Positions 17,816 through 59,684 of a DNA stretch of 64,000 nucleotides are shown piece by piece. The stretch comes from an uncultured Lachnospiraceae bacterium (GTDB lineage Bacteria > Bacillota > Clostridia > Lachnospirales > Lachnospiraceae): NCBI GenBank assembly GCA_947169235.1, contig CAMVOY010000001.1, positions 6,743-70,742 on the forward strand, given 5' to 3'. Position 1 is the stretch's first letter. Every line of letters starts with the position of its first letter. A program made the position numbers and the translations under genes. The notes below the pieces were generated by a model that saw only the letters and a program-made list of their open reading frames with translations, was not told where the DNA came from and made no database searches.

Positions 17816-19582
17816 TTATTCTACATCCTGAAGTGCTGCAAAGTCTTCCTCTCCGGTTCTGATCTTTACGACTCTGTTTACCGGATATACAAAGATCTTT
17901 CCATCACCGATCTTTCCGGTGTAAAGAGTTTTCTTCGCTGTCTCGATGACGCTGTCGACAGGGATACCGCTGACCACTACCTCCAGTTTGATCTTTGGCA
18001 AAAGTGTCATGTCCATCTCTACTCCACGGTACATCTCGCCGGCACCCTTCTGGATACCGCAACCGCTGACCTGAGTAACTGTGATTCCGGTAACACCGAG
18101 TGTATTCAGTGCTCTCTTCATCTTGTCATAGCGTGACAGCTTTGTGATGATAACAACTTTATAGATACCCGAATCAGGTATGGTGCCCTCGAGTTCTTTG
18201 GCCACATTCTGAACCGGAACCGCGGCATTTCTCATAGCCTCACTCGCATCTTCATAAGCAGCGACACCGAGGTTTGTGTTTTCGTTTGCTGACATTGCAC
18301 CGGTAGATACATCCATGATCGAGAAGCCGGAATATGCGCTTGCCAGACCGTGCTCAGTCAGGTCGAGTCCCTCGAGCTCTTCTTCCTCACTTACTCTCAG
18401 ACCGAAAATAAGCTTAATGAGGCCGAATACGACGAGCATTCCGACTGCTGCCCATGCGGCTACTGCCGCAAATCCTACCAACTGGATACCGAGCTGCTCG
18501 AAGCCTCCTCCGTAGAAAAGACCTTCCTTAATACCCGCAAGCTCAAATCCCGGTGCGCTTGATGTTGCAAAAAGTCCGGTTGCGATCGTTCCCCAGATAC
18601 CGTTCATCATATGAACTGCCACGGCACCTACAGGATCATCAACATGAAGCTTGTAATCAAGGAGCCATACTCCGAAGATCACCAGAAGTCCTGATATAGC
18701 TCCAATAGCGATGGCACCCGATGCATCAGTAACATCACACGGAGCGGTGATGGCAACCAGTCCGGCAAGTGATGCGTTCAGACACATCGACACATCCGGC
18801 TTGCCATATCTGATCCAGGTAAAGACCATACATACCACGGTCGCAACGGAAGGTGCGATGGTAGTTGTGACAAATACTGATGCGAGCTGCTCCGTTGTGG
18901 TACATGCCGCACCGTTGAATCCGTACCAACCGAGCCACAGGATGAATACACCCAATGCTCCGATAACAAGGTTGTGACCCGGGAAGGCATTTACCTTGAT
19001 AACCTTTCCCGACTTATCCCTTTCAAACTTACCGATACGCGGACCGACCAAGATAGCTCCAACCAAAGCAGCAATACCGCCGACCATATGGATCGCACAT
19101 GACCCTGCAAAATCATGGAATCCCATCTGAGCGAGCCAGCCGCCTCCCCAGATCCAGTGAGCTTCGATCGGGTAGATCAAAGCTGAGATAACAGCGGAGT
19201 ATACACAGTAGCTCAAAAACTTTGTACGCTCTGCCATGGCGCCGGATACGATGGTCGCCGTGGTCGCACAGAACACCAGGTTAAATACGAAGTTTGACCA
19301 ATCGAAGTTCGCGTAGTTTGTAAAAATATCAAGTCCCGGCTTTCCGATCAGTCCGACCATATCTTCCCCCAGGAGAAGGCCGAAGCCGATCAGGATAAAT
19401 ACCACACACCCGATACAGAAGTCCATCAGGTTCTTCATGAGGATATTGCCGGCATTCTTTGCCCTGGCAAATCCTGACTCCACCATTGCAAATCCCGCCT
19501 GCATCCAAAAGACGAGTGCTGCGCCGATAAGGAACCAGACTCCAAAAAGTTTTCCGTCCATCAGCTGAATTAAATCGTCCAT
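17816..19582 (-). CDS. ammonium transporter fused to a C-terminal P-II (GlnB/GlnK) domain
   Basis: The Amt signature FWMQAGFAMVESGFARAKN and about 11 TM spans occupy the N-terminal part. The C-terminal ~112 aa (YKVVIITK...VTQVSGCGIQKGAGEMYRGVE...GDGKIFVYPV) is a P-II domain. ATG 19582 lies behind GGAGGA, and the track start 19669 sits inside the leader. Confidence 0.9.
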   Translation of the reverse strand: MDDLIQLMDGKLFGVWFLIGAALVFWMQAGFAMVESGFARAKNAGNILMKNLMDFCIGCVVFILIGFGLLLGEDMVGLIGKPGLDIFTNYANFDWSNFVFNLVFCATTATIVSGAMAERTKFLSYCVYSAVISALIYPIEAHWIWGGGWLAQMGFHDFAGSCAIHMVGGIAALVGAILVGPRIGKFERDKSGKVIKVNAFPGHNLVIGALGVFILWLGWYGFNGAACTTTEQLASVFVTTTIAPSVATVVCMVFTWIRYGKPDVSMCLNASLAGLVAITAPCDVTDASGAIAIGAISGLLVIFGVWLLDYKLHVDDPVGAVAVHMMNGIWGTIATGLFATSSAPGFELAGIKEGLFYGGGFEQLGIQLVGFAAVAAWAAVGMLVVFGLIKLIFGLRVSEEEELEGLDLTEHGLASAYSGFSIMDVSTGAMSANENTNLGVAAYEDASEAMRNAAVPVQNVAKELEGTIPDSGIYKVVIITKLSRYDKMKRALNTLGVTGITVTQVSGCGIQKGAGEMYRGVEMDMTLLPKIKLEVVVSGIPVDSVIETAKKTLYTGKIGDGKIFVYPVNRVVKIRTGEEDFAALQDVE

Positions 19583-19599: not shown

Positions 19600-19696
19600 C
19601 TTTTTTTTGTATAAAACAAAAGGCGCCTCGGTCACAAAACCGAGACGCCCTTGCCTCAACGAAACACATCGTAACATAGTTAAACTATTTTGTCAA
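19600..19696 (-). promoter_or_regulatory. promoter plus leader with hexaloop hairpin and intrinsic terminator (copy 1 of 3)
   Basis: On the minus strand: TTGACA (19696-19691), 17 nt, TACGAT (19673-19668). Then comes the hairpin TTGAGGC-AAGGGC-GTCTCGG (19659-19640). It is nested in the 5' arm of a terminator, GGCAAGGGCGTCTCGG/CCGAGGCGCCTTTT, followed by a U-run. Confidence 0.7.
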
Positions 19697-19736
19697 CTAT
19701 TTTTTTTACACTTGTTAAAAATTATCAAATATTTAT

Positions 19737-21230
19737 TCACTTATTATTCCTCTTGGAAAGAGGTTGTTCAAACCGGTTTTTCTCCGTGTTTTCTGGCACC
19801 GGCGTAGGATACGCCCCTGTAAAACATGCGTTACAAAAGTCATTACTTCCGATCAACTCGTGAAGCGAATCAACCGGTAAATAACTTAGAGAATCTGCTC
19901 CTATGAGCTCTGCGATCTCATCAACCGAGTGATGACAGGCGATGAGGTTTTCCTCCGAATCGATATCTGTTCCGTAGTAACACGGATGCAGAAACGGAGG
20001 CGCGGAGATACGCATATGTATCTCCTTTGCTCCCGCTTCTCTAAGGAGTTTTACTATGTGTCCGCTGGTTGTACCTCGGACAATGGAGTCATCTATGAGA
20101 ATAATCCTCTTCCCTTCTACAGTCGAACGGACCGGATTAAGCTTGATCCGTACCTGATTCACTCTCTCCTCCTGAGTGGGAGAGATGAAGGTTCTTCCAA
20201 TATATTTATTTTTAATAAGGCCTATGCCATAAGGTATACCTGATTCCAGAGAATACCCGAGAGCTGCATCGAGCCCTGAGTCCGGTACACCTACTACCAC
20301 ATCGGCGATACTCTCCGAATCATTTCTCGCCAATATCTTTCCGGCACGGAGCCTGGCTTCATGTACGGATACACCGTCAATTACCGAGTCCGGTCTGGCA
20401 AAGTAGATATACTCGAATATGCATGTCTTTTTTTCTTTCTTTTGGACATGACCCATATAGCTTATGATGCCCGGTGCTTCCTTTGTGATGGTTACACCGT
20501 TTCTGGCAGGCGCGGATGAAAATGCTTTTTCATCGGACTGTCCGAAGACCAGAACCTCGCCGGGACTCAAGTCCCTGATAAACTCGGCTCCCACCGCCTC
20601 CAGTGCACAGCTCTCGGATGCGATGATATAGTGCCCATCATCTTTTTTTCCGTAGCAAAGCGGTCTGAATCCATGTGGATCACGGGCTGCGATAAGCTTG
20701 GTCGCGGACATCAATACCAGTGAGTACGCCCCTTCCAAAAGAGGCATGGTAGCCATCACTGCTTCCTCGATGGAAGGGTGAGTAAGTCTCTGCCTGGTCA
20801 CCAGATACGCGATGATCTCCGTATCTGATGTCGAATGAAAGATCGCTCCCGAAAGCTCGAGTTTACTTCTGAGTTCATAAGCATTACTTATGTTTCCGTT
20901 ATGAGCGAGCGCCATCCTTCCCTTCTGGTGGTTGACCTCCATCGGCTGGCAGTTATTTCTCCCGTCCCCACCTGTCGTCGAATACCTGACATGCCCGATA
21001 CCCATCGTCCCCGTGGGGAGCTTATCAAGTGTCTCTCCGTCAAATACCGTGCGGACCTCACCTATATCCTTATGTGAGAAAAATAATCCGTCGTTGCCGA
21101 CAACGATACCACAGCTTTCCTGCCCGCGATGCTGAAGCGAATACAGACCGTAGTAAACATCCTTTGCCACTGCATATGGCTTGTCTGCATAAACTCCGAA
21201 TACACCGCACTCTTCGTGAATGGAATGCAT
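19737..21230 (-). CDS. purF: amidophosphoribosyltransferase (glutamine PRPP amidotransferase)
   Basis: N-terminal MHSIHEECGVFGV...LQHRGQESCGI, the PRPP loop IILIDDSIVRGTT, and C-terminal Fe-S cysteines. ATG 21230 lies behind GGAGGT. Confidence 0.9.
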   Translation of the reverse strand: MHSIHEECGVFGVYADKPYAVAKDVYYGLYSLQHRGQESCGIVVGNDGLFFSHKDIGEVRTVFDGETLDKLPTGTMGIGHVRYSTTGGDGRNNCQPMEVNHQKGRMALAHNGNISNAYELRSKLELSGAIFHSTSDTEIIAYLVTRQRLTHPSIEEAVMATMPLLEGAYSLVLMSATKLIAARDPHGFRPLCYGKKDDGHYIIASESCALEAVGAEFIRDLSPGEVLVFGQSDEKAFSSAPARNGVTITKEAPGIISYMGHVQKKEKKTCIFEYIYFARPDSVIDGVSVHEARLRAGKILARNDSESIADVVVGVPDSGLDAALGYSLESGIPYGIGLIKNKYIGRTFISPTQEERVNQVRIKLNPVRSTVEGKRIILIDDSIVRGTTSGHIVKLLREAGAKEIHMRISAPPFLHPCYYGTDIDSEENLIACHHSVDEIAELIGADSLSYLPVDSLHELIGSNDFCNACFTGAYPTPVPENTEKNRFEQPLSKRNNK

Positions 21231-21240
21231 AGATACCTCC

Positions 21241-21325
21241 AAATAAGTAAAAGGCGCCCCGGATTTCTCCGAGACGCCTTTGCCTCAACGCTATGTATAA
21301 TATCACATGTGTGAGTGAGTGTCAA
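21241..21325 (-). promoter_or_regulatory. promoter plus leader with hexaloop hairpin and intrinsic terminator (copy 2 of 3)
   Basis: On the minus strand: TTGACA (21325-21320), 17 nt, TATTAT (21302-21297). Then the hairpin TTGAGGC-AAAGGC-GTCTCGG (21288-21269). The terminator is AAAGGCGTCTCGG/CCGGGGCGCCTTT plus a U-run abutting the RBS. Confidence 0.7.
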
Positions 21326-21393: not shown

Positions 21394-21428
21394 TTACAAA
21401 ATTTTACACGGGAGGCAACACAGACATC

Positions 21429-45012: not shown

Positions 45013-45106
45013 TTGACAAGATCACTTAAGTGTGATAACATGACGTGCAGTGAGGCAAAGGCGTCTCAGAGGAAACTCTGGGACGTCTTTGCCTTTCTTT
45101 GGTTTT
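45013..45106 (+). promoter_or_regulatory. promoter plus leader with hexaloop hairpin and intrinsic terminator (copy 3 of 3)
   Basis: TTGACA (45013-45018), 17 nt, TAACAT (45036-45041). Hairpin TGAGGC-AAAGGC-GTCTCA (45051-45068). An 18-bp terminator stem pairs 45054-45071 with 45076-45093, followed by TTTCTTTGGTTTT and then the RBS AGGAGG. Confidence 0.75.
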
Positions 45107-45120: not shown

Positions 45121-46821
45121 ATGTGTGCGATACTGACTTATGCCCGCACGGATGTGACTGAAAACTTCTTTACGGATATGCTCATGAAGACACAGTCGAG
45201 GGGTCCGGATATGACTGACCATATCAAGACTAAGGGTGGTTGGATCGGATTCAACCGTCTGTCGATCATGGGACCGGAGCCCACGGGAATGCAGCCGTTT
45301 ACGCATCGCGGAAATGCGGTTGTATGTAACGGTGAGATCTATGGATTCGGACCGTTAAAAGAGTATCTGGCTTCGATCGGATATCCGTTTGAAAGCGGAA
45401 GTGACTGCGAACTGTTGATGCCACTTTATGAGAAACTCGGCACGGCGATGTTTGGCATATTGGATGCGGAGTTTGCATGTGTCATCTATGACGGGGAGAA
45501 AAATGAGTTCATAGCCGCGAGAGATCCGATCGGGATCAGACCTTTGTACTACGGATATGACGAAGACGGATATATCATTTTTGCATCAGAGCCTAAAAAC
45601 ATGGTGGGGGTAGTTAAGGAAATAAAACCGTTTCCGCCTGGGCATTTTTATAAGGACGGGGAGTTCGTATGTTACCGCGATATGACAACGGGCGGTGTTT
45701 ATGCGAAGGATGAATGGAACCCCGGAAAGGCAGGACAGGGACGGCACTTAAGCGGAGTCGGAAACGCCCTGAGTCGAAAGACCAAAGGCAGCATGACGCT
45801 GTCGAACGGGATCGGGATTCACGACGAGGGAGTCGATGCGATCTGTGAGGGAATACACGACAGACTGTTAAACGGTATCAGAAAAAGACTTACCGCAGAC
45901 CAGCCGGTAGGATTCCTACTCTCGGGAGGACTTGATTCTTCACTGGTATGCGGAGCGGCAGCTAAGCTGTGGGACGGTCCGATCGAGACATTTGCTATCG
46001 GAATGGATATCGATGCGATCGATCTGAAATACGCGAGACAGGTTGCCGATTATATCCATTCAAATCACCATGAGGTGATAATCACGGCAGACGATGTCAT
46101 CGAGGCTGTCGAGCCGGTAATACAGGCGCTCGCTACATATGACATTACGACGATCAGAGCGTCGATAGGAATGTATCTTCTCTGCAAATGGATCCATGAG
46201 AACACCAACATAAAGGTGCTCCTCACCGGAGAGATATCGGATGAGCTGTTCGGATACAAATACACCGACTTTGCACCGGATGCGGAGAGCTTCCAGGAGG
46301 AATCGAAAAAAAGGATCAGGGAGCTTCATATGTATGATGTGCTCCGCGCCGATCGCTGCATCAGCGTAAACTCACTTGAGGCGAGGGTGCCGTTCGGAGA
46401 TCTCGATTTCGTCGATTACGTGATGGCGATCGATCCTGAGAAAAAGATGAACACCTACGGCATCGGAAAGTATCTTTTGAGACACGCTTTTGAAAATGAC
46501 GAGCTGATACCTCACGAGATACTGATGAGAGAAAAGGCAGCGTTCTCTGACGCGGTTGGGCACTCACTAAGAGACGACCTGATGGACTTCGCTGAAAAGA
46601 CCTACACAGACGAATCATTTGAAGAAGGAATAAAAAAGTATTCGCACGCACAGCCGTTTACCAAGGAGTCACTCCTATACCGTGACATCTTCGAAAAATA
46701 TTATCCGGGCCAATCCCATATGGTAGACGATTTCTGGATGCCGAATAAGTCCTGGGAAGGCTGTAACGTTAATGATCCGTCGGCGCGCGTTCTGTCAAAT
46801 TATGGCGCGAGCGGAGAGTAA
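45121..46821 (+). CDS. asnB: asparagine synthase (glutamine-hydrolysing)
   Basis: N-terminal MCAI nucleophile Cys2, the PP-loop LLSGGLDSS, and conserved C-terminal synthetase blocks. Confidence 0.9.
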   Translation: MCAILTYARTDVTENFFTDMLMKTQSRGPDMTDHIKTKGGWIGFNRLSIMGPEPTGMQPFTHRGNAVVCNGEIYGFGPLKEYLASIGYPFESGSDCELLMPLYEKLGTAMFGILDAEFACVIYDGEKNEFIAARDPIGIRPLYYGYDEDGYIIFASEPKNMVGVVKEIKPFPPGHFYKDGEFVCYRDMTTGGVYAKDEWNPGKAGQGRHLSGVGNALSRKTKGSMTLSNGIGIHDEGVDAICEGIHDRLLNGIRKRLTADQPVGFLLSGGLDSSLVCGAAAKLWDGPIETFAIGMDIDAIDLKYARQVADYIHSNHHEVIITADDVIEAVEPVIQALATYDITTIRASIGMYLLCKWIHENTNIKVLLTGEISDELFGYKYTDFAPDAESFQEESKKRIRELHMYDVLRADRCISVNSLEARVPFGDLDFVDYVMAIDPEKKMNTYGIGKYLLRHAFENDELIPHEILMREKAAFSDAVGHSLRDDLMDFAEKTYTDESFEEGIKKYSHAQPFTKESLLYRDIFEKYYPGQSHMVDDFWMPNKSWEGCNVNDPSARVLSNYGASGE

Positions 46822-47109: not shown

Positions 47110-47140
47110 GGAAACTTTAGTAAAATAGGAGGGAATTATC

Positions 47141-49249
47141 ATGATGGAAGCAAAGAGATTACCTGAGGAATACGGAAGTTTAGTTTTCGGCGACAAGGTT
47201 ATGCGCGAGCGTCTGCCAAAGGATGTTTACAAAGCAGTCCACAAGACGATCGTAAGCGGCACGCATCTTGAACTCGACGTCGCCAACGCAGTTGCAGTGG
47301 CGATGAAGGAATGGGCGATCGAGAACGGTGCGACACACTACACACACTGGTTCCAGCCGATGACAGGACTCACCGCTGAGAAACATGACAGCTTTATCTC
47401 ACCGGAAGGTGACGGCAGTGTGATCATGGAGTTCTCAGGTAAAGAGCTTGTAAAGGGAGAGCCGGATGCGTCGAGTTTTCCGTCCGGAGGCTTGCGTGCT
47501 ACATTTGAGGCGAGAGGATATACCGCATGGGATCCTTCTTCACCGGCATTTATCAAGGACGGATCGCTCTACATCCCGACAGCGTTCTGCTCATACGGAG
47601 GCGAGGCTCTCGATAAAAAGACACCGCTTCTGCGTTCTATGGAAGCGCTTTCTAAGGAAGCGGTAAAAATAATGAACATCCTGGGTTATGAGGATGTAAG
47701 TCGGGTAAATACAACGATCGGATCCGAGCAGGAATATTTCCTTATCGACAAGGAAGATTATAAACAGAGAAAGGACCTTCTCTTCACGGGACGTACTCTT
47801 ATCGGTGCGCCTGCTACAAAGGGACAGGAGATGGAGGATCACTACTTCGGAGTTATCAAGCCGAAGGTATCAGCATTCATGCATGATCTCGATGAGGAGC
47901 TGTGGAAGCTCGGTATCCCGGCAAAGACCAAGCACAACGAGGTTGCTCCTTCACAGCACGAGATGGCTCCTGTTTTTGAGACGGCAAATGTGGCTGTCGA
48001 TCACAACCAGCTGACTATGGAGGTTATGAAAAAAGTTGCCGACAAGCACGGATATGCATGCCTCCTTCATGAAAAACCATTCGACGGTATCAACGGTTCA
48101 GGAAAGCATAATAACTGGTCAATCTGTACGGACACCGGTATCAACCTCCTTGATCCGGGCAAGCATCCTGATGACAACGTACCGTTCCTCGTAACACTGA
48201 TCGCGGTTATCGCGGCGGTTGACGAGTACGCTGAGCAGCTTCGTCTGTCGGTGGCATCTGCAGGAAATGATCATCGACTCGGAGCAAACGAGGCGCCGCC
48301 GGCAGTTATCTCAATCTTCGTCGGCGATGAGCTTGCAAAGGTGCTTGAGAGCATCGAGCAGGGTACAGCCTTCAAGGGCGGAGCAAAGGTAAAAATGGAG
48401 ATGGGTGCTGAAGTACTTCCGCACATCACCAAGGATAACACGGACCGTAACCGTACATCACCGTTTGCCTTCACGGGCAACAAGTTCGAGTTCCGTATGC
48501 CGGGTTCAAGCGTGTCAGTTGCAAACGCAAACATCGTACTCAACACGGCAGTTGCCGAGATCCTCTCACGCATGAGCGCAGAGCTCGACGGACTTACCGG
48601 AGACGCTCTTCATGACAAACTGACAGAGCTCTTAAAGACAACACTTGTTGATCACAAGAGAGTACTTTTTAACGGAAACGGATATACGGACGAGTGGATC
48701 GAGGAAGCAGCAAAGAGAGGTCTTCCGAACCTCAAGTCACTTCCGGATGCCATGCCGGAGTGGATCTCAGACAAGTCGATCAAGCTCTTTACTTCACACC
48801 AGATCTTCACTGAGGAAGAGATCAGATCACGTTATGAGATACTGCTTGAGAATTATTCAAAGTCGATCAATATCGAAGCGCTCACCATGCAGGAGATGGT
48901 TCGCAAGGATCTGACTTCAGGGATCATAGCGTATGAGCAGGATCTTACAAATGAGATCCTCCAGAAGGAGAAAGCGCTTCCGGGCGCCAAGGCAGCACTT
49001 GAGGGACAGATCCTTAAAACTCTTGATGATACATCAGCGGAGATCGCTGAGAAACTCGAGACCCTGAAAAAGGATACGTTCGAGGCTGAGAGTATCAAGG
49101 ATGTCCAGAAGCAGGCTGACTTCTATGAGAAAAAAGTCCTTGCTGATATGGATGAGTTGAGAATATATGCAGATCAGGCAGAGGCACTTATCCCTGATGA
49201 GTATCTCAGCTATCCGACCTACGGACAGATGCTGTTTTCACTCAGATGA
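47141..49249 (+). CDS. glnN: glutamine synthetase type III
   Basis: 702 aa. N-terminus ..FGDKVMRERLPKDVYKAV..ATHYTHWFQPMTG is typical of GS-III. RBS GGAGGG. Confidence 0.9.
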   Translation: MMEAKRLPEEYGSLVFGDKVMRERLPKDVYKAVHKTIVSGTHLELDVANAVAVAMKEWAIENGATHYTHWFQPMTGLTAEKHDSFISPEGDGSVIMEFSGKELVKGEPDASSFPSGGLRATFEARGYTAWDPSSPAFIKDGSLYIPTAFCSYGGEALDKKTPLLRSMEALSKEAVKIMNILGYEDVSRVNTTIGSEQEYFLIDKEDYKQRKDLLFTGRTLIGAPATKGQEMEDHYFGVIKPKVSAFMHDLDEELWKLGIPAKTKHNEVAPSQHEMAPVFETANVAVDHNQLTMEVMKKVADKHGYACLLHEKPFDGINGSGKHNNWSICTDTGINLLDPGKHPDDNVPFLVTLIAVIAAVDEYAEQLRLSVASAGNDHRLGANEAPPAVISIFVGDELAKVLESIEQGTAFKGGAKVKMEMGAEVLPHITKDNTDRNRTSPFAFTGNKFEFRMPGSSVSVANANIVLNTAVAEILSRMSAELDGLTGDALHDKLTELLKTTLVDHKRVLFNGNGYTDEWIEEAAKRGLPNLKSLPDAMPEWISDKSIKLFTSHQIFTEEEIRSRYEILLENYSKSINIEALTMQEMVRKDLTSGIIAYEQDLTNEILQKEKALPGAKAALEGQILKTLDDTSAEIAEKLETLKKDTFEAESIKDVQKQADFYEKKVLADMDELRIYADQAEALIPDEYLSYPTYGQMLFSLR

Positions 49250-49279
49250 TGAGATCAAATATGCTGTAATTTAGAATGG

Positions 49280-52200
49280 ATGATGATGATGAATAATAGT
49301 GACAATAATAATCAGGTTATTAATGCCGATTGGTGGAAAAATGAACACGATGCTTGTGGTATCGGAGCTGTTATAAATATTGACGGCAAGAAGGACCATA
49401 GGGTACTTGATGATGCATTAAGCATCGTTGAAAAACTGGAGCACCGCGCCGGGAAGGACGCTACCGGAAAGGTCGGTGACGGTGTCGGGATCCTGACTCA
49501 GATCTCGCACACATTTTTCAAAAAAATATGTAAAAGATCAGGTATAGAAATTGGCGATGAAGGCGACTACGGAATCGGTATGTTTTTCTTTCCGCAGGAT
49601 GATATCAAGCGTCGTTTTGCAATGAGGATGCTTGAGGTCATCGCGGAAAAGGAAGGCATCGGGTTCCTCGGCTGGCGTGATGTGGATACGCATCCGGAGT
49701 TACTCGGTCAGGTGGCCGTGGACTGCATGCCTCATATCAGCCAGTGCTTTCTCAAGAGACCTGACGATGTAGAAAAGGGACTCGATTTCGACAGAAGACT
49801 TTTCTGTCTGCGTCGTGAATATGAGCAGAGTTCCGAGGATACATATATCTGTTCACTGTCCTCTCGTACCATCGTGTACAAGGGTATGTTTTTGGTAGGA
49901 CAGCTCAGAAACTTCTACGAGGATCTGCTGTCAAAGGATTATAAAACAGCGATCGCACTCGTTCACTCCAGATTCTCGACCAATACCACTCCGTCATGGC
50001 AGCGTGCTCATCCGTATCGTATGATCGCGCACAACGGTGAGATCAACACGATCCGCGGTAATGCAGATCGTATGCTCGCCCGTGAGGAGACCATGAGCGG
50101 AGCGGTCCTTACTGACGATCTCAAAAAAGTATATCCTGTTATCGCAGCATCAGGTTCTGATTCCGCGATGCTTGATAACACATTGGAATTCCTTTACATG
50201 AACGGAATGGAGCTCCCACTCGCCATGATGATCACGGTACCGGAGCCGTGGAAACATGATGACGCGATGAGTCAGGAGCGCAAAGATTTTTATCACTATT
50301 ATGCAACCATGATGGAGCCATGGGACGGCCCGGCAGCCATTCTTTTTACAGACGGAGAACTATTCGGTGCGACGCTCGACAGAAACGGACTTCGTCCGAG
50401 CCGTTACTATGTAACAAAGGATAAGAGGCTCATCCTCGCATCAGAGGTGGGTGTACTTGACATACCCGAGGATACGATCGAAAAGAAATCGAGACTGTCA
50501 CCGGGAAGGATGCTCGTAGTTGATACCAAAGAGGGCAGGATCCTCACAGATACGGAGCTCAAGGAGCGTTATGCTCACGCTCATCCGTACGGCGAGTGGC
50601 TCGATCGTCATCTTCTTCATTTGGATCATTTAAACATCCCGAATAAAAAGATCCCGACACATGAGCAGTCTGTACGTGACCGTCTTTACAAGGTTTTCGG
50701 TTACTCCTATGAGGATATAAAAAACCAGATACTCCCGATGGCGATGGACGGCGTGGAGCCTACGGTATCAATGGGAAATGATGTTCCGCTCGCGATGCTC
50801 TCATCACATCACCAGCCGCTGTTCTGTTATTTCAAGCAGTTATTCGCGCAGGTGACCAATCCGCCGATCGATTCACTCAGGGAGAAGATCGTAACAGATA
50901 CCACCGTCTACATAGGTTCAGACGGTGATCTTTTGCAGGTAAAGAGTGACAACTGTCGTGTGCTCGAGGTGAACAGCCCGATCCTTACCGGTGTAGATCT
51001 GATGAAGATAGAAGCGCTCGATATGGAGGGATTCCGCACTGCAAAGGTGTCATTACTTTATTATAAAAATACTCCGCTCGAGCGTGCTCTCGATCAGTTA
51101 AACATTGCAGTTGACAGAGCCGTATCAGAGGGGGCAAATATAATCACTCTTTCAGACCGCGGTGTCGATGAAAACCATATGCCGATACCGTCACTTCTTG
51201 CGGTATCATCGGTTGAGCAGCATCTGGTACGCACCAAGAAGAGAACCCAGGTATCACTTATACTCGAGAGCGGCGAGCCGAGAGATGTGCATCAGATCGC
51301 ATGCCTTCTTGGCTATGGTGTACGTGCCATCCATCCTTATCTCGCGCATGAATGCATCGCCGAGATGATAGACATCGGCATGATCGATAAGGATTATCAT
51401 ACTGCGATTGAAGATTATAACAAAGCACTTTTAAACGGTGTAGTAAAGATCGCTGCGAAAATGGGAATATCAACGCTGCAGTCTTATCAGTCTGCGCGTA
51501 TTTTTGAAGCGATCGGATTATCTAAAGAATTGATAGATACTTACTTTACAGGTACCGTGAGTCGCGCAGGCGGTATCGGGATCCGTGAGATCGGAGAGGA
51601 TGTAGAGCTGTGTCATAATAAGGCATTTGATCCTTTGGGTCTTCCTGTTGACTCGACGCTTGATTCGATCGGTTTCCATGGACTCAGAAGCGGTGCCGAC
51701 AAAGAGGATCATATGTACACGCCGAAGACGATCGTAACACTCCAGCGTGCAGTAAGAGAGGGCGACTACGATATATTCAAGGAGTACGCCCGTATGGTCG
51801 ACGACGAGAACAGACCGCATACGCTGCGAGCGCTGCTCGAGTTTATTCCGGCTAAAAAACCTATTCCTTTGGATGAAGTGGAGAGCGAGGATGAAATAGT
51901 AAAACGCTTCCAGACAGGAGCCATGTCATATGGTTCCCTGTCACAGGAGGCGCACGAGACGCTCGCGATCGCCATGAACAGACTCGGTGGCAGATCAAAT
52001 ACGGGCGAAGGTGGCGAGGCTACTGAGCGTTTCGGAACGGAGAGAAACTCTGCGGTCAAGCAGGTGGCCAGCGGAAGGTTCGGTGTGACCTCTAGCTACC
52101 TCATGAGCGCAAAAGAAATACAGATAAAAATGGCCCAGGGCGCGAAGCCCGGCGAGGGCGGACATCTCCCCGGCAAAAAGGTTTACCCGTGGGTAGCCAA

Positions 52201-53833
52201 GACCAGATTTTCAACACCGGGTGTATCACTTATCTCACCGCCACCGCACCATGATATCTACTCGATCGAGGATCTGGCTCAGTTGATCTACGATCTGAAA
52301 AATGCCAACGACCGGGCCCGTATCTCAGTCAAGCTTGTATCCGAGGCAGGAGTAGGAACCATCGCATCAGGTGTTGCAAAAGCCGGTGCGGGCGCCATTC
52401 TTATCTCAGGATACGACGGAGGAACAGGAGCAGCGCCATCCTCGTCAGTACATCATGCGGGACTTCCGTGGGAGCTCGGTGTCAGTGAGGCACACAGGAG
52501 TCTGGTTGAGAACGGACTTCGTTCACATGTCGTCCTCGAGACAGACGGAAAGCTGATGACCGGACGTGATGTAGCGATCGCGGCCCTGCTTGGAGCAGAG
52601 GAGTTTGGCTTTGCGACAGCTCCGCTTGTTTCTCTCGGATGTATGATGATGAGAGTCTGCTCGAAGGATACTTGTCCGGTAGGTATCGCGACTCAGAATG
52701 AATGCCTGAGAAAGCGTTTCGCAGGAAAGCCGGAGCATGTGATGAACTTCATGAGATTTGTGGCAAGACAGCTCCGTGAGATCATGAGCGAGATGGGATT
52801 CAAATCCGTCGAGGAGATGGTAGGCCGTACGGATCGATTGAAGACGAGACTTGAAGGTCGTACGGATCGTGCGGTGCTCGCTGATCTTTCAAGGATACTG
52901 AACAGCGATTACGCTGAAAAGAAAGAGCTTAACACTCATTTCATAAAGAAAAATGCATACGATTTCGGTCTTGATAAAACGATCGATGCAAAGTCTCTGA
53001 TCCCTGCTTATAAAAAGAAAAAGGGTAAGGGAGCACAGACCATCGAGGTCGAGATCTCGAGTACCGACAGATCGTTTGGAACTCTCCTCGGATCTCGCAT
53101 CACTGCTGATCATGAGGACAAACTTAAGGATGACGCAGTCACTGTAGTGGCTCACGGAGGAGCAGGTCAGTCATTCGGTGCATATATTCCGAACGGTCTC
53201 ACGCTGAGGCTTTACGGTGACGCGAATGACGGTTTCGGTAAAGGCCTCTCAGGAGGAAAGCTGATCGTAACTCCTGCAAAGGAAGCAGCATACGATGCAC
53301 ATGATAACATCATCATCGGCAATGTCGCTCTTTATGGAGCGACTGCCGGAAAGGCATATATAAACGGTATCGCAGGAGAACGTTTCTGCGTCAGGAATTC
53401 GGGCGCGACTGCTGTAGCAGAGGGCTGCGGTGATCATGGTCTGGAGTACATGACAGGAGGACGCGCAGTGATACTCGGTATGACCGGAAAGAACTTTGCA
53501 GCCGGTATGAGCGGCGGTATCGCTTATGTCCTTGATACCGAGCATACCCTGTATCTGAGGATGAACAAGGATATGGCTTCGCTTACCGAAGTTACCGGTG
53601 AATATGATATTATAGAGCTTAAATCGATCCTTACTGACTATGTGAAGGAGACAGGGTCAGAGTTCGGAAAAACCGTGCTTGATAACTTCGATGAGTATCT
53701 TCCGGATTTCAAGAAGATCGTTCCGAATGACTATCAGAAGATGTTAACTGCGATAAGTCATTTCGAAGAGCAGGGTATAGATCCTGAAACAGCAGTATAC
53801 GAAGCATTCAAAGAAGTTACAGGGACAAACTGA
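49280..53833 (+). CDS. gltB: glutamate synthase large subunit
   Basis: 1517 aa with an N-terminal Ntn amidotransferase Cys (HDACGIGAV), an FMN/Fe-S central domain and a C-terminal GXGXG domain. Which of the four tandem ATG codons is the start is unresolved. Confidence 0.95.
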   Translation: MMMMNNSDNNNQVINADWWKNEHDACGIGAVINIDGKKDHRVLDDALSIVEKLEHRAGKDATGKVGDGVGILTQISHTFFKKICKRSGIEIGDEGDYGIGMFFFPQDDIKRRFAMRMLEVIAEKEGIGFLGWRDVDTHPELLGQVAVDCMPHISQCFLKRPDDVEKGLDFDRRLFCLRREYEQSSEDTYICSLSSRTIVYKGMFLVGQLRNFYEDLLSKDYKTAIALVHSRFSTNTTPSWQRAHPYRMIAHNGEINTIRGNADRMLAREETMSGAVLTDDLKKVYPVIAASGSDSAMLDNTLEFLYMNGMELPLAMMITVPEPWKHDDAMSQERKDFYHYYATMMEPWDGPAAILFTDGELFGATLDRNGLRPSRYYVTKDKRLILASEVGVLDIPEDTIEKKSRLSPGRMLVVDTKEGRILTDTELKERYAHAHPYGEWLDRHLLHLDHLNIPNKKIPTHEQSVRDRLYKVFGYSYEDIKNQILPMAMDGVEPTVSMGNDVPLAMLSSHHQPLFCYFKQLFAQVTNPPIDSLREKIVTDTTVYIGSDGDLLQVKSDNCRVLEVNSPILTGVDLMKIEALDMEGFRTAKVSLLYYKNTPLERALDQLNIAVDRAVSEGANIITLSDRGVDENHMPIPSLLAVSSVEQHLVRTKKRTQVSLILESGEPRDVHQIACLLGYGVRAIHPYLAHECIAEMIDIGMIDKDYHTAIEDYNKALLNGVVKIAAKMGISTLQSYQSARIFEAIGLSKELIDTYFTGTVSRAGGIGIREIGEDVELCHNKAFDPLGLPVDSTLDSIGFHGLRSGADKEDHMYTPKTIVTLQRAVREGDYDIFKEYARMVDDENRPHTLRALLEFIPAKKPIPLDEVESEDEIVKRFQTGAMSYGSLSQEAHETLAIAMNRLGGRSNTGEGGEATERFGTERNSAVKQVASGRFGVTSSYLMSAKEIQIKMAQGAKPGEGGHLPGKKVYPWVAKTRFSTPGVSLISPPPHHDIYSIEDLAQLIYDLKNANDRARISVKLVSEAGVGTIASGVAKAGAGAILISGYDGGTGAAPSSSVHHAGLPWELGVSEAHRSLVENGLRSHVVLETDGKLMTGRDVAIAALLGAEEFGFATAPLVSLGCMMMRVCSKDTCPVGIATQNECLRKRFAGKPEHVMNFMRFVARQLREIMSEMGFKSVEEMVGRTDRLKTRLEGRTDRAVLADLSRILNSDYAEKKELNTHFIKKNAYDFGLDKTIDAKSLIPAYKKKKGKGAQTIEVEISSTDRSFGTLLGSRITADHEDKLKDDAVTVVAHGGAGQSFGAYIPNGLTLRLYGDANDGFGKGLSGGKLIVTPAKEAAYDAHDNIIIGNVALYGATAGKAYINGIAGERFCVRNSGATAVAEGCGDHGLEYMTGGRAVILGMTGKNFAAGMSGGIAYVLDTEHTLYLRMNKDMASLTEVTGEYDIIELKSILTDYVKETGSEFGKTVLDNFDEYLPDFKKIVPNDYQKMLTAISHFEEQGIDPETAVYEAFKEVTGTN

Positions 53834-53936
53834 CAGTTTCCGATCAGGGGTTTGAACTGCGCAACAACGCTCGCAAATGCCCCCTTGTAAAAACTGTTAT
53901 CCGGACCCCTTGCATTTTTAGAAATGGAGTGATAGA

Positions 53937-55403
53937 ATGGGTAAGATTGGTGGATTTTTGGAATATGATCGAAAGGAGAATCAGAAAGTTTCTCCGATTG
54001 ACAGGATTAAGAGTTTCCGGGAATTCTATGTCGTAAATAATGCCGAGGAGCGAAGATGTCAGGCGGCGAGATGTATGGACTGCGGGGTGCCGTTCTGTCA
54101 GTCGGCGATGAGCCTTGGCGGGATGGTTGTAGGATGTCCGCTTCACAACCTGATCCCGGAATGGAATGATGCTATATTCAGAGAGCAGGACAAGCATGCG
54201 TTAAGCAGACTTTTAAAAACGAATCCTTTTCCGGAGTTTACGGGCAGGGTTTGTCCGGCGCTGTGTGAGAAGGCCTGCATCAATGGTCAGGACGGTGAGA
54301 GTGTCACTGTTCATGATAACGAGAGATACATCATTGAGACAGCTTATAAAAATGGCTGGATGAAGCCGCGTGAGATCCGCCACAGAAGCGGCAAAAAGGT
54401 TGCGGTGATCGGCAGCGGTCCGTCCGGACTGAGCACTGCAGATACGCTTAATAAGCGAGGTCATCAGGTGACCGTATTTGAGAGAGAGGATCGCATCGGC
54501 GGACTCCTCATGTATGGTATCCCAAATATGAAGCTTGATAAGGAAGTTATATCACGCAGGCAAAAGCTCATGGAGGAAGAAGGAGTAGTCTTTAAGACAG
54601 GTGTGGATGTCGGAAGGGATATAAAGATAGCCCAACTGAAAAAAGACTATGATGCCATCGTGATGTGCTGTGGAGCAAAGAAAGCAAGGGCGCTTACGGC
54701 AAAGGGAATCGATGGAGTAAAGGGTGTCAGATTTGCCGTTGATTTTCTCACGGAGGTAACGAAAAATCTCCTTGAGGATACGCTTGATAAATCCGTTTCC
54801 AAACAGGTTAAAAATAAGCATATTGTAGTGGTCGGCGGAGGTGATACAGGTAATGATTGTATCGGTACTTCCATAAGACTCGGAGCAAAGAGCGTGACTG
54901 CTCTTGAGATGATGCCGAAGCCGCCTGTAGAGCGTACCGAGAGCAATCCGTGGCCGCAGTGGCCGAAGGTATTAAAAACAGATTACGGTCATGAAGAAGC
55001 CATAGAAAAATATGGTGAAGATCCGAGAGTTTTTGAGACCACTGTTAAAGAAGTTATTTCAGAAAACGGAAAGATAAAAAGTATAGTAACAGTAAAGGTA
55101 AGATTTGAAAACGGAAAGCTTACCGAGGTGAAGGGTTCCGAGCAGACTCTTCCGTGTGACCTTCTTTTGATCGCGGCAGGCTTCGTAGGAGCTGAGGAGT
55201 ATCTTCCGAAAAATGCAAAGATAAAGCTCAGTCCCAAAGGGACGGTAGAAACAGATCAGGGTAGCTACAGCTCGAGCGTTGAGGGCATTTTTACAGCGGG
55301 AGATATGCATCGAGGACAGTCGCTGGTGGTGTGGGCAATCGCAGAAGGAAAGGCCTGCGCCAGAGAGGTAGACGACTATCTGATGGGCTATACTAATCTA
55401 TAA
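53937..55403 (+). CDS. gltD: glutamate synthase small subunit (NADPH)
   Basis: Fe-S cysteine clusters (CMDCGVPFC, CPALCEKAC), dinucleotide folds VAVIGSGPSGL and VVVGGGDTGNDC. Confidence 0.95.
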   Translation: MGKIGGFLEYDRKENQKVSPIDRIKSFREFYVVNNAEERRCQAARCMDCGVPFCQSAMSLGGMVVGCPLHNLIPEWNDAIFREQDKHALSRLLKTNPFPEFTGRVCPALCEKACINGQDGESVTVHDNERYIIETAYKNGWMKPREIRHRSGKKVAVIGSGPSGLSTADTLNKRGHQVTVFEREDRIGGLLMYGIPNMKLDKEVISRRQKLMEEEGVVFKTGVDVGRDIKIAQLKKDYDAIVMCCGAKKARALTAKGIDGVKGVRFAVDFLTEVTKNLLEDTLDKSVSKQVKNKHIVVVGGGDTGNDCIGTSIRLGAKSVTALEMMPKPPVERTESNPWPQWPKVLKTDYGHEEAIEKYGEDPRVFETTVKEVISENGKIKSIVTVKVRFENGKLTEVKGSEQTLPCDLLLIAAGFVGAEEYLPKNAKIKLSPKGTVETDQGSYSSSVEGIFTAGDMHRGQSLVVWAIAEGKACAREVDDYLMGYTNL

Positions 55404-55420
55404 ATAAGGAGACATGATCC

Positions 55421-59500: not shown

Positions 59501-59684
59501 AGGTTATGTCAGCTACATCCTGAATACCAGGGCGATACTTTCGGGCGTGCATTATGAGGACGGTGTCGCGATCAGAAAGTGTGCAGTCGCAAACGGAGTG
59601 ACGATGTTCACGTCGCTTGATACGGTGAAGATACTGCTGGATGTACTGGAGGAGATATCACCGCGCATCAGAGCGTTGGAGTAA
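56505..59684 (+). CDS. carB: carbamoyl-phosphate synthase large subunit
   Basis: 1059 aa with duplicated ATP-grasp halves ([19 protein letters not shown] / [19 protein letters not shown]) and a C-terminal MGS-like domain. Confidence 0.95.

What the first reader, a model, noticed from the sequence alone, without database searches (positions are those of the whole stretch)
19600..21325. Three near-identical promoter, hexaloop-hairpin and terminator leaders in front of amt-PII, purF and asnB
Copies lie at 19600-19696 (-), 21241-21325 (-) and 45013-45106 (+). Each has a perfect TTGACA, a 17-nt spacer and a -10 hexamer. About 8 nt later comes (T)TGAGGC-AA(A/G)GGC-GTCTC(A/G). That segment can fold as a 6-bp stem with a hexaloop carrying A at position 1 and G at position 4.

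The whole small hairpin lies inside the 5' arm of a longer stem (12-18 bp) followed by a U-run, which is an intrinsic terminator. The two structures are therefore mutually exclusive. The terminator stems contain G-U pairs at equivalent positions in all three copies, so they pair only as sense-strand RNA.

As I recall it, this is the logic and loop signature reported for ANTAR-protein targets. An ANTAR protein is encoded in the window at 60879-61475. Unlike the canonical two-hairpin ANTAR substrate, I see only one hairpin between the predicted transcription start and the terminator.
Basis: partly seen in the sequence, partly recalled or inferred. Interest (0 to 1): 0.65.

Follow-up and report, generated by a model that had tools for sequence, protein, structure and literature searches.

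The report
One-hairpin ANTAR nitrogen attenuator leaders
Three nitrogen-metabolism operons of this rumen Lachnospiraceae bacterium start with the same tiny RNA hairpin buried in a transcription terminator, most likely a one-hairpin version of the switch that ANTAR antiterminator proteins normally read as two hairpins, and the same design recurs across gut and rumen Clostridia.

Summary
Three leaders each carry an extended -10 promoter, then a 5-7 bp hairpin with hexaloop AA(A/G)GGC that starts at about +1. That hairpin lies inside the 5' arm of a strong, strand-specific intrinsic terminator. They precede amt-PII, purF and asnB.

The ANTAR reading is supported. The loop and its closing C-G pair match published EutV and NasR target hairpins. 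The hairpin stem covaries. In loci fetched only through homologues of the window's ANTAR protein, the motif is about 20-fold enriched. It sits before GSIII glnA, gltB, asnB, amt-PII, purF, guaA, glmS, gdh and the regulator's own operon.

In most leaders the promoter leaves no room for an upstream P1 hairpin, so a single hexaloop is the conserved unit. A few relatives do have two hairpins.

The regulator has Asn in place of the phospho-accepting Asp, so its receiver domain is a pseudo-receiver. In 64 of 66 loci it follows a C-terminally truncated glutamine-synthetase paralogue, a likely sensor partner.

There is no Rfam match, and I found no paper describing this leader. I could obtain no transcript or binding data, so the mechanism is inferred. 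Verdict: a new variant of a known kind.

The parts
19668..19696 (-). Promoter of the amt-PII leader: TTGACA (19696-19691), 17-nt spacer containing TGt, and TACGAT (19673-19668).
   Evidence: Sequence read. The same promoter layout is seen in 74 related leaders.
19639..19660 (-). ANTAR-type hairpin of the amt-PII leader: (GU)UGAGGC - AAGGGC - GUCUCG(GU). It begins about 8 nt after the -10 hexamer.
   Evidence: -6.6 kcal/mol alone, not significant against shuffles.
19611..19652 (-). Intrinsic terminator of the amt-PII leader. Its 5' arm is the hairpin's loop plus 3' arm (AAGGGCGUCUCGG). The 3' arm is CCGAGGCGCCUUU, followed by a U run.
   Evidence: -33.8 kcal/mol, z -5.4; antisense -21.8 kcal/mol; covariance-model hit of 62.4 bits.
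17816..19582 (-). Ammonium transporter fused to a C-terminal PII domain (588 aa). This is the regulated gene.
   Evidence: Pfam PF00909 at 7e-120 and PF00543 at 1e-22.
21297..21325 (-). Promoter of the purF leader: TTGACA (21325-21320), 17-nt spacer containing TGa, and TATTAT (21302-21297).
21269..21288 (-). ANTAR-type hairpin of the purF leader: UUGAGGC - AAAGGC - GUCUCGG.
   Evidence: -8.0 kcal/mol.
21241..21281 (-). Intrinsic terminator of the purF leader: AAAGGCGUCUCGGA - GAAA - UCCGGGGCGCCUUU plus a U run. It has two U-G pairs.
   Evidence: -28.3 kcal/mol, z -4.9; antisense -15.9 kcal/mol; 66 bits.
19737..21230 (-). purF, amidophosphoribosyltransferase (glutamine-dependent), starting at the ATG at 21230.
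   Evidence: NCBIfam TIGR01134, 503 bits against a cut-off of 350.
45013..45041 (+). Promoter of the asnB leader: TTGACA, 17-nt spacer containing TGa, and TAACAT.
   Evidence: 10 of 12 matches, TG present.
45051..45068 (+). ANTAR-type hairpin of the asnB leader: UGAGGC - AAAGGC - GUCUCA.
   Evidence: (-7.9 kcal/mol).
45052..45105 (+). Intrinsic terminator of the asnB leader: a 20-bp stem that swallows the whole small hairpin, followed by a U run.
   Evidence: 20 pairs, 10 of them G-C; -37.8 kcal/mol, z -6.7; antisense -26.1 kcal/mol.
45121..46821 (+). asnB, asparagine synthase (glutamine-hydrolysing).
   Evidence: NCBIfam NF006949, 578 bits against a cut-off of 499.
47141..59684 (+). GSIII glnA, gltB, gltD, carA and carB, downstream of asnB on the same strand. 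No strong terminator or leader motif of their own was found in between. They are probably co-transcribed from the asnB leader or from internal promoters.
   Evidence: Pfam; terminator scan. In relatives the same leader sits directly before GSIII or gltB.
59703..60872 (+). Glutamine-synthetase paralogue (389 aa) lacking the C-terminal ~60 residues of GSI. It is the candidate sensor partner of the ANTAR protein.
   Evidence: TIGR00653 at 260 bits against a cut-off of 429, matching model positions 1-402 of 462. It has GSKSEF where GSI has GxExEF (the GSI consensus is from memory). It lies directly upstream of the ANTAR gene in 64 of 66 loci.
60879..61475 (+). Pseudo-receiver ANTAR protein (198 aa), the candidate antiterminator.
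   Evidence: Pfam PF03861 at 51 bits against a cut-off of 27.3. The phospho-Asp position is Asn and the acidic pair is SS. A profile hits Rv1626, AmiR, EutV and NasR. RNA-contact positions are kept.

Best explanation
The three leaders are protein-dependent transcription attenuators of a nitrogen (glutamine) regulon.

Sequence of events:
1. Transcription starts at a strong sigma-A promoter.
2. The first ~18 nt of the RNA form a weak hairpin: a 5-7 bp stem with a closing C-G pair, a G-U pair below it, and the hexaloop A-A-N-G-G/A-C/U.
3. If nothing holds this hairpin, its loop and 3' arm pair with sequence ~15-30 nt downstream. That makes a far more stable intrinsic terminator, and transcription stops before the gene.
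4. When the ANTAR protein encoded at 60879-61475 is free, it binds the hexaloop hairpin on the nascent RNA. The terminator's 5' arm stays sequestered, and RNA polymerase reads into amt-PII, purF or asnB. Behind asnB it probably continues into GSIII-gltBD-carAB, the GS-like gene and the ANTAR gene itself.

One hexaloop hairpin, placed at the very 5' end of the transcript, is the whole recognition element in these copies.

The regulator's receiver domain cannot be phosphorylated. It is most likely controlled by protein-protein contact with the truncated glutamine-synthetase paralogue encoded immediately upstream, in the manner of AmiC-AmiR or NasS-NasT. That paralogue would report glutamine or nitrogen status.

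Shown here:
- the anatomy of the leaders;
- the mutual exclusivity and strand specificity of the two structures;
- conservation and covariation of the hairpin;
- identity with published ANTAR loops;
- co-occurrence with the ANTAR/GS-like gene pair;
- the regulon content.

Inferred:
- the transcription start;
- binding by this protein;
- antitermination in vivo;
- the role of the GS-like protein and the signal it senses.
For: Anatomy.

Identity with canonical ANTAR hairpins: the loops AAAGGC, AAUGGC, AACGGC and AAAGAC with a closing C-G pair appear in the eut and nasF seed alignment. Ramesh 2012 showed that A1, G4 and the closing pairs are required.

Spread: a genome scan found 29 loci, nearly all rumen Lachnospiraceae or Clostridia, with the core before gltB, GSIII, asnB, purF, amt-PII, guaA and glmS.

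Variants: a covariance model and generic scans found divergent copies with compensatory stems. These are GAGGC/GUCUC, AAGGC/GUCUU, UGAGC/GUUCA, GAGAC/GUCUC and AAGGC/GCUUU.

Covariation, on leaders selected without any stem requirement:
- 83.5% of cells paired, against 66.6% when shuffled and 30-53% when the register is slid;
- covariation score 0.50 against 0.22, reached by 0 of 500 shuffles.

Enrichment: in the full locus set, which includes the loci picked by the motif, the scan gave 106 loop-matching hits against 2-6 in dinucleotide shuffles. In the 85 loci fetched only by ANTAR-protein homology it gave 64 hits. 21 of the 26 loci of 15 kb or more carry the motif.

Loop conservation in leaders chosen only by promoter plus terminator, in loci chosen only by the protein: 24 of 28 hairpins at about +1 have AA.G.. 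loops.

No room for P1: the -10 hexamer ends 13-15 nt before the closing C in 51 of 74 leaders.

Link to the canonical two-hairpin form: L007, L008 and L028 have two hairpins.

Regulator:
- ANTAR domain above the Pfam cut-off;
- profile hits to Rv1626, AmiR, EutV and NasR;
- Asn at the phospho-acceptor position in 17 of 18 homologues of 42-82% identity;
- a GS-like gene adjacent in 64 of 66 loci.

Structural plausibility: Walshe 2022 (PMC8934654) showed that both ANTAR domains of a EutV dimer contact a single hexaloop, and redefined the minimal target as one hexaloop.
Against: There is no experimental datum for this organism.
- The transcription start is predicted from the promoter only.
- Public metatranscriptomes gave no usable 5' or 3' ends.

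For EutV, deleting P1 abolished induction, and a single stem-loop bound clearly worse than two (Ramesh 2012). A lone hairpin may therefore be insufficient without some further factor.

The isolated hairpin is not more stable than shuffled sequence (z -0.6 to -1.5).

The covariation rests mainly on two or three stem classes, so there are few independent events.

The rest of the genome is not visible, so another RNA-binding protein cannot be excluded.

The sensor role of the GS-like protein rests only on conserved adjacency and the pseudo-receiver.
Confidence: 0.72

Rival explanations
1. The leaders are ANTAR targets, but the functional substrate still has two elements. The second is not recognised here. 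It could be a non-canonical hairpin in the terminator apex, a start site further upstream, or a second RNA or protein partner. On this reading, the single hairpin is an artefact of how the leaders were read.
For: EutV needs both P1 and P2 in vivo. Some relatives do have a second A..G.. hexaloop hairpin:
- L007, L008 and L028 have one upstream.
- The second attenuator of L030 and the L032 leader have one inside the terminator loop.
- In L075, L082, L084 and L085 it forms the terminator apex.

Copy A has a UUUGUG hexaloop (G4 but U1) in its terminator apex.
Against: In the window, the terminator apices of copies B and C are GAAA tetraloops.

Across 74 leaders the promoter sits at a fixed 13-15 nt before the closing C. 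This holds even in the two-hairpin leaders, where it is P1 that occupies +1.

No second hairpin is conserved across the family.
Confidence: 0.12
2. The conserved 18-mer acts as DNA, not RNA. It would be an imperfect inverted repeat (GAGGC-N6-GTCTC) at +1 to +20 serving as the operator of a nitrogen repressor. The terminator would then be a constitutive or unrelated feature.
For: The element is a near-palindrome lying just downstream of the -10 hexamer, a typical operator position.
Against: The second stem pair is G-U in 50 of 58 leaders, which would be a fixed asymmetry between half-sites. Outer pairs include many U-G pairs.

The 6-nt centre is conserved, asymmetric and identical to ANTAR loops.

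Second copies occur in tandem behind the first terminator, far from any promoter (L030, L068, L072, L075, L084, L113).

Every copy overlaps a terminator whose 3' arm covaries with it, and which folds about 12 kcal/mol better on the sense strand.
Confidence: 0.05
3. The hairpin is read by something other than the ANTAR protein. Candidates are the GS-like protein itself, a PII protein or another RNA-binding protein, or the leader could be a ligand- or ribosome-independent attenuator set by transcription kinetics alone.
For: No binding data exist. The GS-like gene is as tightly linked to the motif as the ANTAR gene. Rfam has no family for it.
Against: The loop and closing pair match experimentally defined ANTAR determinants exactly. 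The ANTAR domain keeps RNA-contact positions: Lys in RAK, Glu, and His at the Tyr164 position as in AmiR. An 18-nt hairpin is too small for a metabolite-binding pocket.
Confidence: 0.08

Closest known systems
EutV / eut leaders of Enterococcus faecalis (Ramesh 2012 PMC3369931; Walshe 2022 PMC8934654)
   Same: Both use a short hairpin with a hexaloop carrying A1 and G4 and a conserved closing C-G pair. Loops are identical (AAAGGC, AAUGGC, AACGGC, AAAGAC). The hairpin overlaps the 5' arm of an intrinsic terminator. The regulator is REC-coiled coil-ANTAR.
   Different: The eut leaders have two hairpins 5-12 nt apart, and both are required. Here a single hairpin sits at +1. The pair below the closing pair is G-U here, against A-U in eutP. 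EutV is phosphorylated by EutW, whereas this regulator lacks the phospho-Asp and no kinase gene is adjacent. The regulon is nitrogen assimilation, not ethanolamine use.
AmiR-AmiC of Pseudomonas aeruginosa and NasT-NasS
   Same: An ANTAR protein with a non-phosphorylated pseudo-receiver is controlled by a separately encoded ligand-binding partner from the same operon. His occupies the position of EutV Tyr164, as in AmiR.
   Different: The partner here is a truncated glutamine-synthetase paralogue, not a periplasmic-binding-protein-like sensor. The targets form a multi-operon regulon.
NitR (glnA-nitR) of Clostridium saccharobutylicum / C. acetobutylicum, and Clo1313_2030 of C. thermocellum
   Same: An ANTAR regulator is encoded next to a GS gene inside a GS/GOGAT cluster in Clostridia. 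It is reported to induce GS/GOGAT genes on nitrogen limitation (PMC6316151 citing Stutz 2007; PMC4676874).
   Different: I could not read the primary paper, so I do not know what leader structure was described there. The RNA motif, its one-hairpin form, the pseudo-receiver and the breadth of the regulon are worked out here for Lachnospiraceae and Oscillospiraceae.
NasR / nasF leader of Klebsiella oxytoca
   Same: The P2 hairpin GGAU-AAAGGC-GUCC has the same loop. The A1/G4 rule was first defined there. It also links nitrogen assimilation to antitermination.
   Different: It has two hairpins, a NIT sensor domain fused to ANTAR, and a single operon as target.
BglG/SacY/LicT RAT antiterminators
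   Same: It works alike: one protein-stabilised hairpin overlaps the terminator's 5' arm.
   Different: The protein fold is unrelated (CAT/PRD). The RAT hairpin is 29-30 nt with internal loops, and regulation is through the PTS.
Bacillus subtilis GS-TnrA/GlnR
   Same: The idea that a glutamine-synthetase protein reports glutamine status to a regulator by direct contact.
   Different: The regulators there bind DNA and the GS is the active enzyme. Here the partner would be an RNA-binding ANTAR protein and a degenerate GS paralogue. This is an analogy only.

Membership tests
ANTAR-target RNA (as defined by Ramesh 2012) | Short stem capped by a hexanucleotide loop. | tested here: met
   The window copies have a 6-8 bp stem and a 6-nt loop. 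69 of 74 promoter-anchored leaders have a stem of 4 bp or more around the hexaloop, without the stem being used for selection.
ANTAR-target RNA (as defined by Ramesh 2012) | A at loop position 1 and G at position 4. | tested here: met
   The window loops are AAGGGC, AAAGGC and AAAGGC. In leaders chosen only by promoter plus terminator, in loci chosen only by protein, 24 of 28 hairpins at about +1 have AA.G.. loops. Positions 3, 5 and 6 vary. Divergent covariance-model hits keep A1 and G4.
ANTAR-target RNA (as defined by Ramesh 2012) | Sequence-conserved closing base pairs. | tested here: met
   The closing C-G pair is the same as in 16 of 18 seed hairpins. The next pair is G-U in 50 of 58 leaders.
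ANTAR-target RNA (as defined by Ramesh 2012) | Two tandem hairpins (P1 and P2) separated by a short linker. | tested here: not met
   The -10 hexamer ends 8-9 nt before the only hairpin in all three copies. No dual hairpin plus T run exists in the window. The fixed promoter spacing in 51 of 74 relatives leaves no room for P1. Only L007, L008 and L028 have an upstream P1, with a linker of about 29-30 nt.
ANTAR-target RNA (as defined by Ramesh 2012) | The hairpin overlaps the 5' arm of an intrinsic terminator, so the two structures are mutually exclusive. | tested here: met
ANTAR-target RNA (as defined by Ramesh 2012) | An ANTAR protein is encoded in the same genome, and the motif co-occurs with it. 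| tested here: met
   PF03861 protein at 60879-61475. The motif lies within 10 kb of ANTAR homologues in 21 of 26 long loci.
ANTAR-target RNA (as defined by Ramesh 2012) | Direct binding by the ANTAR protein, and protein-dependent read-through. | not testable with these tools
   This needs a gel shift, in vitro transcription or genetics.
ANTAR domain proteins (Pfam PF03861) | ANTAR domain scoring above the curated cut-off, and homology to solved ANTAR proteins. | tested here: met
   51.2 bits against a cut-off of 27.3. The profile hits Rv1626 at 1.6e-19, AmiR at 2e-9, EutV at 2e-8 and NasR at 1e-5.
Two-component response regulators (phosphorylated REC) | A phospho-accepting Asp at the end of beta-3, and an acidic pair after beta-1. 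| tested here: not met
   Asn aligns with the phospho-Asp of Rv1626. ILIVSS replaces the acidic pair. Asn is present in 17 of 18 homologues. The REC score of 28.9 bits is below the Pfam cut-off of 30.2.
Type I glutamine synthetase (TIGR00653 equivalog) | Full-length match above the trusted cut-off. | tested here: not met
   260 bits against a cut-off of 429, covering model positions 1-402 of 462. It has GSKSEF in place of the GxExEF metal-binding motif (the motif consensus is from memory).
Intrinsic (Rho-independent) terminator | G+C-rich stem-loop immediately followed by a U run. | tested here: met
   Function in vivo was not tested.
Any Rfam 15 family | Covariance-model score at or above the gathering threshold. 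| tested here: not met
   There were 0 hits at the gathering threshold in the window. Around the leaders only sub-threshold chance hits appeared.

The most novel reading that the evidence does not exclude
A single 5'-terminal hexaloop hairpin is sufficient in vivo for ANTAR-mediated transcription antitermination. It defines a large glutamine regulon in gut and rumen Clostridia, covering ammonium uptake, GS/GOGAT and most glutamine amidotransferases. The regulator is a pseudo-receiver ANTAR protein that is held or released by a catalytically degenerate glutamine-synthetase paralogue acting as the nitrogen sensor. That would be a new input module for ANTAR proteins.
Probability: 0.4. Interest if true: 0.72.

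Novelty: new variant of a known kind. Interest (0 to 1): 0.6.

Why it matters
ANTAR antitermination has been defined by a two-hairpin RNA. The 2022 EutV-RNA structure suggested that one hexaloop is the true minimal target, and its authors asked for bioinformatic evidence of single-hexaloop sites.

These leaders are natural candidates for such sites. There are dozens of them, they are conserved, they covary, and they sit in front of coherent nitrogen genes. Searches built on the two-hairpin model appear to have missed them in Lachnospiraceae. In Table S2 of Ramesh 2012, the hits in Butyrivibrio, Roseburia and E. eligens lie next to hypothetical proteins.

The finding also gives a concrete, testable model for nitrogen control in abundant rumen and human-gut Clostridia. 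Nitrogen regulation in these organisms is poorly known and matters for ammonia assimilation in the gut.

The GS-like partner and the pseudo-receiver would add a new sensing module to the ANTAR family.

An 18-nt hairpin plus terminator is also a compact part for synthetic control.

Tried and rejected
1. Rfam. There were no hits at the gathering threshold in the window. Around the leaders there were only weak chance hits to unrelated sRNA families.

2. Transcript evidence.
- The look-up of sequencing runs and read laying on the amt/purF and asnB leaders returned only assembled contigs of rumen metagenomes and metatranscriptomes.
- The conserved amt segments attract cross-species matches, and depth over the leaders is 0-5.
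- Nothing can be said about the start site or termination.

3. A canonical two-hairpin substrate in the window. None was found.

4. Palindromes in the three promoter spacers (ATAGTTTAACTAT, TCACACATGTGA, ATCACTTAAGTGTGAT). I considered them as operators or as an upstream P1. They differ from each other, lack A1/G4 loops, and are not kept in the P6B14 orthologues. I take them as chance.

5. The DNA-operator reading of the 18-mer. I rejected it because of the fixed G-U asymmetry, the asymmetric conserved loop, and tandem copies that lie away from promoters.

6. Two of the 29 genome hits look like chance or unrelated terminators. L024 (Chitinophagaceae) has no U run. L018 (Armatimonadetes) lies before a flavoprotein-type ORF.

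7. The primary NitR paper (Stutz 2007) is not held. Six literature searches found no description of this leader.
Full report
**Observation**

All three have the same layout:
- TTGACA, a 17-nt spacer ending in TGn, and TAnnAT;
- 8-9 nt later, (U)UGAGGC-AA(A/G)GGC-GUCUC(G/A);
- then sequence complementary to the loop and 3' arm of that hairpin;
- then a U run, a Shine-Dalgarno sequence and the start codon.

The 17-nt core occurs exactly three times in the window. None of 100 dinucleotide shuffles gave three matches, even with 3 mismatches allowed.

Folded alone, the small hairpins are weak, at -6.6 to -8.0 kcal/mol, and not better than shuffles. The full leaders fold into 13-20 bp terminators at -28.3 to -37.8 kcal/mol, with z-scores of -4.9 to -6.7. 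The reverse complements fold about 12 kcal/mol worse, with mismatches where the sense RNA has G-U pairs. The structures are therefore sense-strand RNA structures.

The genes behind the leaders are an ammonium transporter fused to PII, purF and asnB.

**Surroundings**

Downstream of asnB, on the same strand, lie GSIII glnA, gltB, gltD, carA, carB, a 389-aa glutamine-synthetase paralogue and a 198-aa REC-ANTAR protein. No strong terminator or leader motif of their own separates them. The regulator is probably part of its own regulon.

Rfam has no family matching the leaders. No further copy, and no canonical two-hairpin ANTAR substrate, is present in the window.

**Relatives found by the RNA motif**

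I ran one scan of species-representative genomes with the pattern GAGGCAARGGCGTCTC...GRCGYCTT. It returned 29 loci.
- Almost all are rumen Lachnospiraceae or Clostridia MAGs and isolates.
- Lachnospiraceae bacterium P6B14 carries the same three leaders before the same three genes. Its proteins are about 95% identical to the window's.

In the other genomes the leader precedes gltB (ten loci), GSIII glnA, asnB, purF, amt-PII, guaA and glmS.

A covariance model built on the terminator structure found further, divergent copies in these loci.
- The stem changes by compensatory substitutions. GAGGC/GUCUC becomes AAGGC/GUCUU or UGAGC/GUUCA.
- The loop varies as AAAGGC, AAGGGC, AAUGGC, AAUGGU, AAGGGU, AAAGAC and AGAGGC.
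- A1 and G4 are kept throughout.

**Relatives found by the protein only**

To avoid circularity I fetched loci through the ANTAR protein alone. It has 1370 homologues in the protein search. I read contexts of three homologues and of 80 metagenome loci at 40-70% identity.

A generic scan asked for a closing C-G pair, an A..G.. hexaloop, a stem of 4 bp or more, and an overlapping terminator.
- In these 85 loci it gave 64 hits with loops of the form A[AG]NG[AG][CT].
- 21 of the 26 loci of 15 kb or more carry at least one hit.
- The same scan on dinucleotide-shuffled sequence gave 2-6 such hits in 1.22 Mb.

The genes behind all copies, counted as 75 unique ORFs, are:

| Gene | Count |
|---|---|
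| GSIII glnA | 23 |
| gltB | 17 (plus 3 archaeal-type GOGAT) |
| asnB | 8 |
| amt-PII | 7 |
| purF | 5 |
| GS-like/ANTAR operon | 5 |
| guaA, gdh, an aminotransferase | 1 each |

glmS (L028) is a further target seen in the motif-based genome scan.

This is a coherent regulon. It covers ammonium uptake, GS/GOGAT and glutamine-consuming amidotransferases.

**Is the hairpin real?**

I selected leaders by promoter plus the 8-nt closing-pair/loop pattern only, with no demand on the stem.
- 69 of the 74 unique leaders have a stem of 4 bp or more.
- On the 58 distinct 24-mers, 83.5% of cells pair. The figure is 66.6% after shuffling and 30-53% when the register is slid.
- The covariation score is 0.50 against 0.22, reached by 0 of 500 shuffles.
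- Three pairs switch between G-C, A-U and U-A.
- The pair below the closing C-G pair is G-U in 50 of 58.

The caveat is that most of the variation falls into two or three stem classes, so the number of independent events is small.

I also took leaders chosen only as promoter plus leader terminator, in the protein-selected loci. Of the 28 hairpins at about +1, 24 have AA.G.. loops. The other four are unrelated hairpins.

**Is it an ANTAR target?**

The published seed alignment of ANTAR substrates (Ramesh 2012, Figure S1) contains:
- eutA P2, UUAAGC-AAAGGC-GCUUAA;
- eutG P1, GUGUAC-AAUGGC-GUAUAC;
- eutS P1, GCAC-AACGGC-GUGC;
- nasF P2, GGAU-AAAGGC-GUCC.

These are the same loops and the same closing C-G pair as here. 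That paper showed experimentally that A1, G4 and the closing pairs are needed, and that the hairpin next to the terminator competes with it.

The window protein has an ANTAR domain above the Pfam cut-off. A profile of its family hits Rv1626, AmiR, EutV and NasR. Aligned to EutV, it keeps the Lys of RAK and the Glu that contact G4. At the position of Tyr164, which stacks on G4, it has His, as AmiR does.

**One hairpin or two?**

In 51 of 74 leaders the -10 hexamer ends 13-15 nt before the closing C. The hairpin therefore begins at about +1, and an upstream P1 cannot be part of the RNA. The three window copies follow this rule.

The family is nevertheless linked to the two-hairpin form.
- In L007, L008 and L028 the promoter sits at the same distance from a different hairpin, AUGUC-AAAGGG-GACAU or GUGUC-AAUGGC-GACAU. 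The GAGGC hairpin with its terminator follows about 29-30 nt later.
- In the second attenuator of L030, and in L032, a second hexaloop hairpin lies inside the terminator loop.
- In L075, L082, L084 and L085 it forms the terminator apex.

None of these second elements is conserved across the family. The terminator apices of window copies B and C are GAAA tetraloops.

Several loci have two complete hairpin-terminator units in tandem. That also argues against the 18-mer acting as a promoter-bound DNA operator.

Walshe 2022 found that both ANTAR domains of a EutV dimer grip one hexaloop. They redefined the minimal target as a single hexaloop and asked for bioinformatic discovery of such sites. Against this, EutV in vivo needs both hairpins.

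**The regulator and its likely input**

The receiver domain has ILIVSS in place of the acidic pair, and Asn in place of the phospho-accepting Asp. Asn is present in 17 of 18 homologues of 42-82% identity. The domain is a pseudo-receiver, as in AmiR.

A GS paralogue of about 390-400 aa lies directly upstream on the same strand in 64 of 66 loci.
- It scores 260 bits against the GSI equivalog cut-off of 429.
- It lacks the last ~60 residues of GSI.
- It has GSKSEF where GSI has the GxExEF metal-binding motif (the motif consensus is from memory).

I infer, and have not shown, that this protein senses glutamine or nitrogen status and holds or releases the ANTAR protein. AmiC does this for AmiR and NasS for NasT. 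The idea is the same as for B. subtilis GS and TnrA.

**Known context and novelty**

Three things were already known:
- ANTAR control of nitrogen genes, with two-hairpin hits before GS, PII, amt and GOGAT in several Clostridia (Ramesh 2012);
- the NitR regulator next to glnA in C. saccharobutylicum (PMC6316151);
- a homologous cluster in C. thermocellum (PMC4676874).

In Ramesh's Table S2, the hits in the Lachnospiraceae Butyrivibrio proteoclasticus, Roseburia hominis and Eubacterium eligens lie next to hypothetical proteins. The nitrogen regulon described here was evidently not captured there.

Six literature searches found no description of a one-hairpin ANTAR nitrogen leader. The primary NitR paper could not be read.

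I rate the finding a new variant of a known kind. The family and mechanism are the same. The substrate is reduced to one hexaloop at the 5' end of the RNA, and the input module is a pseudo-receiver with a GS-like partner.

**Limits**

- Nothing here shows transcription start, termination, binding or a nitrogen response.
- Public RNA data were uninformative.
- Only 64 kb of the genome is visible.

Noticed in passing
window 46840-47110 (asnB-GSIII spacer): A ~265-nt near-perfect long hairpin (-118 kcal/mol, z -10.2) with nested inverted repeats. It is preceded by three 22-nt direct repeats (AATTRTGGCGCGAGCGGAGART), the first of which overlaps the end of asnB. It is present in Lachnospiraceae P6B14 (L006, 97% identity). 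In RUG381 (L026) only the flanks remain and the spacer is 79 nt, so it looks like a ~225-nt palindromic insertion (MITE-like or structured RNA) inside the operon. No other copy occurs in the window or in the fetched loci.
   Followed up: partly
L007:1490-1620(+), L008:4635-4770(-), L028:3450-3590(+): These are two-hairpin leaders in relatives. A first ANTAR-like hairpin (AUGUC-AAAGGG-GACAU or GUGUC-AAUGGC-GACAU) sits at about +1. A linker of about 29-30 nt follows, then the GAGGC hairpin and terminator. They precede gltB and glmS.
   Followed up: yes
L030:3200-3370(-), L068, L072, L075, L084, L113: Two complete hairpin-terminator units lie in tandem before GSIII glnA. The second has no promoter of its own. 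In the second unit of L030 the terminator pairs with the hairpin's 5' arm plus loop instead of its loop plus 3' arm.
   Followed up: partly
L075, L082, L084, L085 (leader before GSIII): The apex of the terminator is itself a hexaloop hairpin, UGAGC-AAUGGG-GCUCA (A1 and G4), directly abutting the first hairpin. This second ANTAR-like loop is compatible with the terminator rather than exclusive with it.
   Followed up: no
window 61472-61500 and 61557-62936: The best sigma-70-like promoter of the region (TTGACA-17-TATATT with TG) starts in the last codons of the ANTAR gene. It precedes a TrpB-like PLP enzyme (NF009057, 689 bits). No hexaloop hairpin or terminator lies in that leader.
   Followed up: partly
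window 17816-19582 (-): The ammonium transporter and a PII domain are fused in one 588-aa protein. The same fusion is seen in relatives and in C. thermocellum (Clo1313_2260, according to PMC4676874).
   Followed up: no
window 21384-22898 (+): Anthranilate synthase component I (trpE-like) is transcribed divergently from the purF leader. The window also holds glutamine-amidotransferase-type genes with no leader motif in front of them.
   Followed up: no
runs X20-X22 laid on window 45051-45091: Contigs from sheep-gut runs share the 40-nt hairpin/terminator core and then continue into different downstream sequences. These are other copies or other species carrying the same leader in the same communities.
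   Followed up: no
L030/L031 10599-12206, L032 10674-12017: In more distant relatives the GS-like/ANTAR pair is followed by pyrG (CTP synthase, another glutamine amidotransferase) or by gdh. The glutamate synthase there is of the split archaeal type.
   Followed up: no
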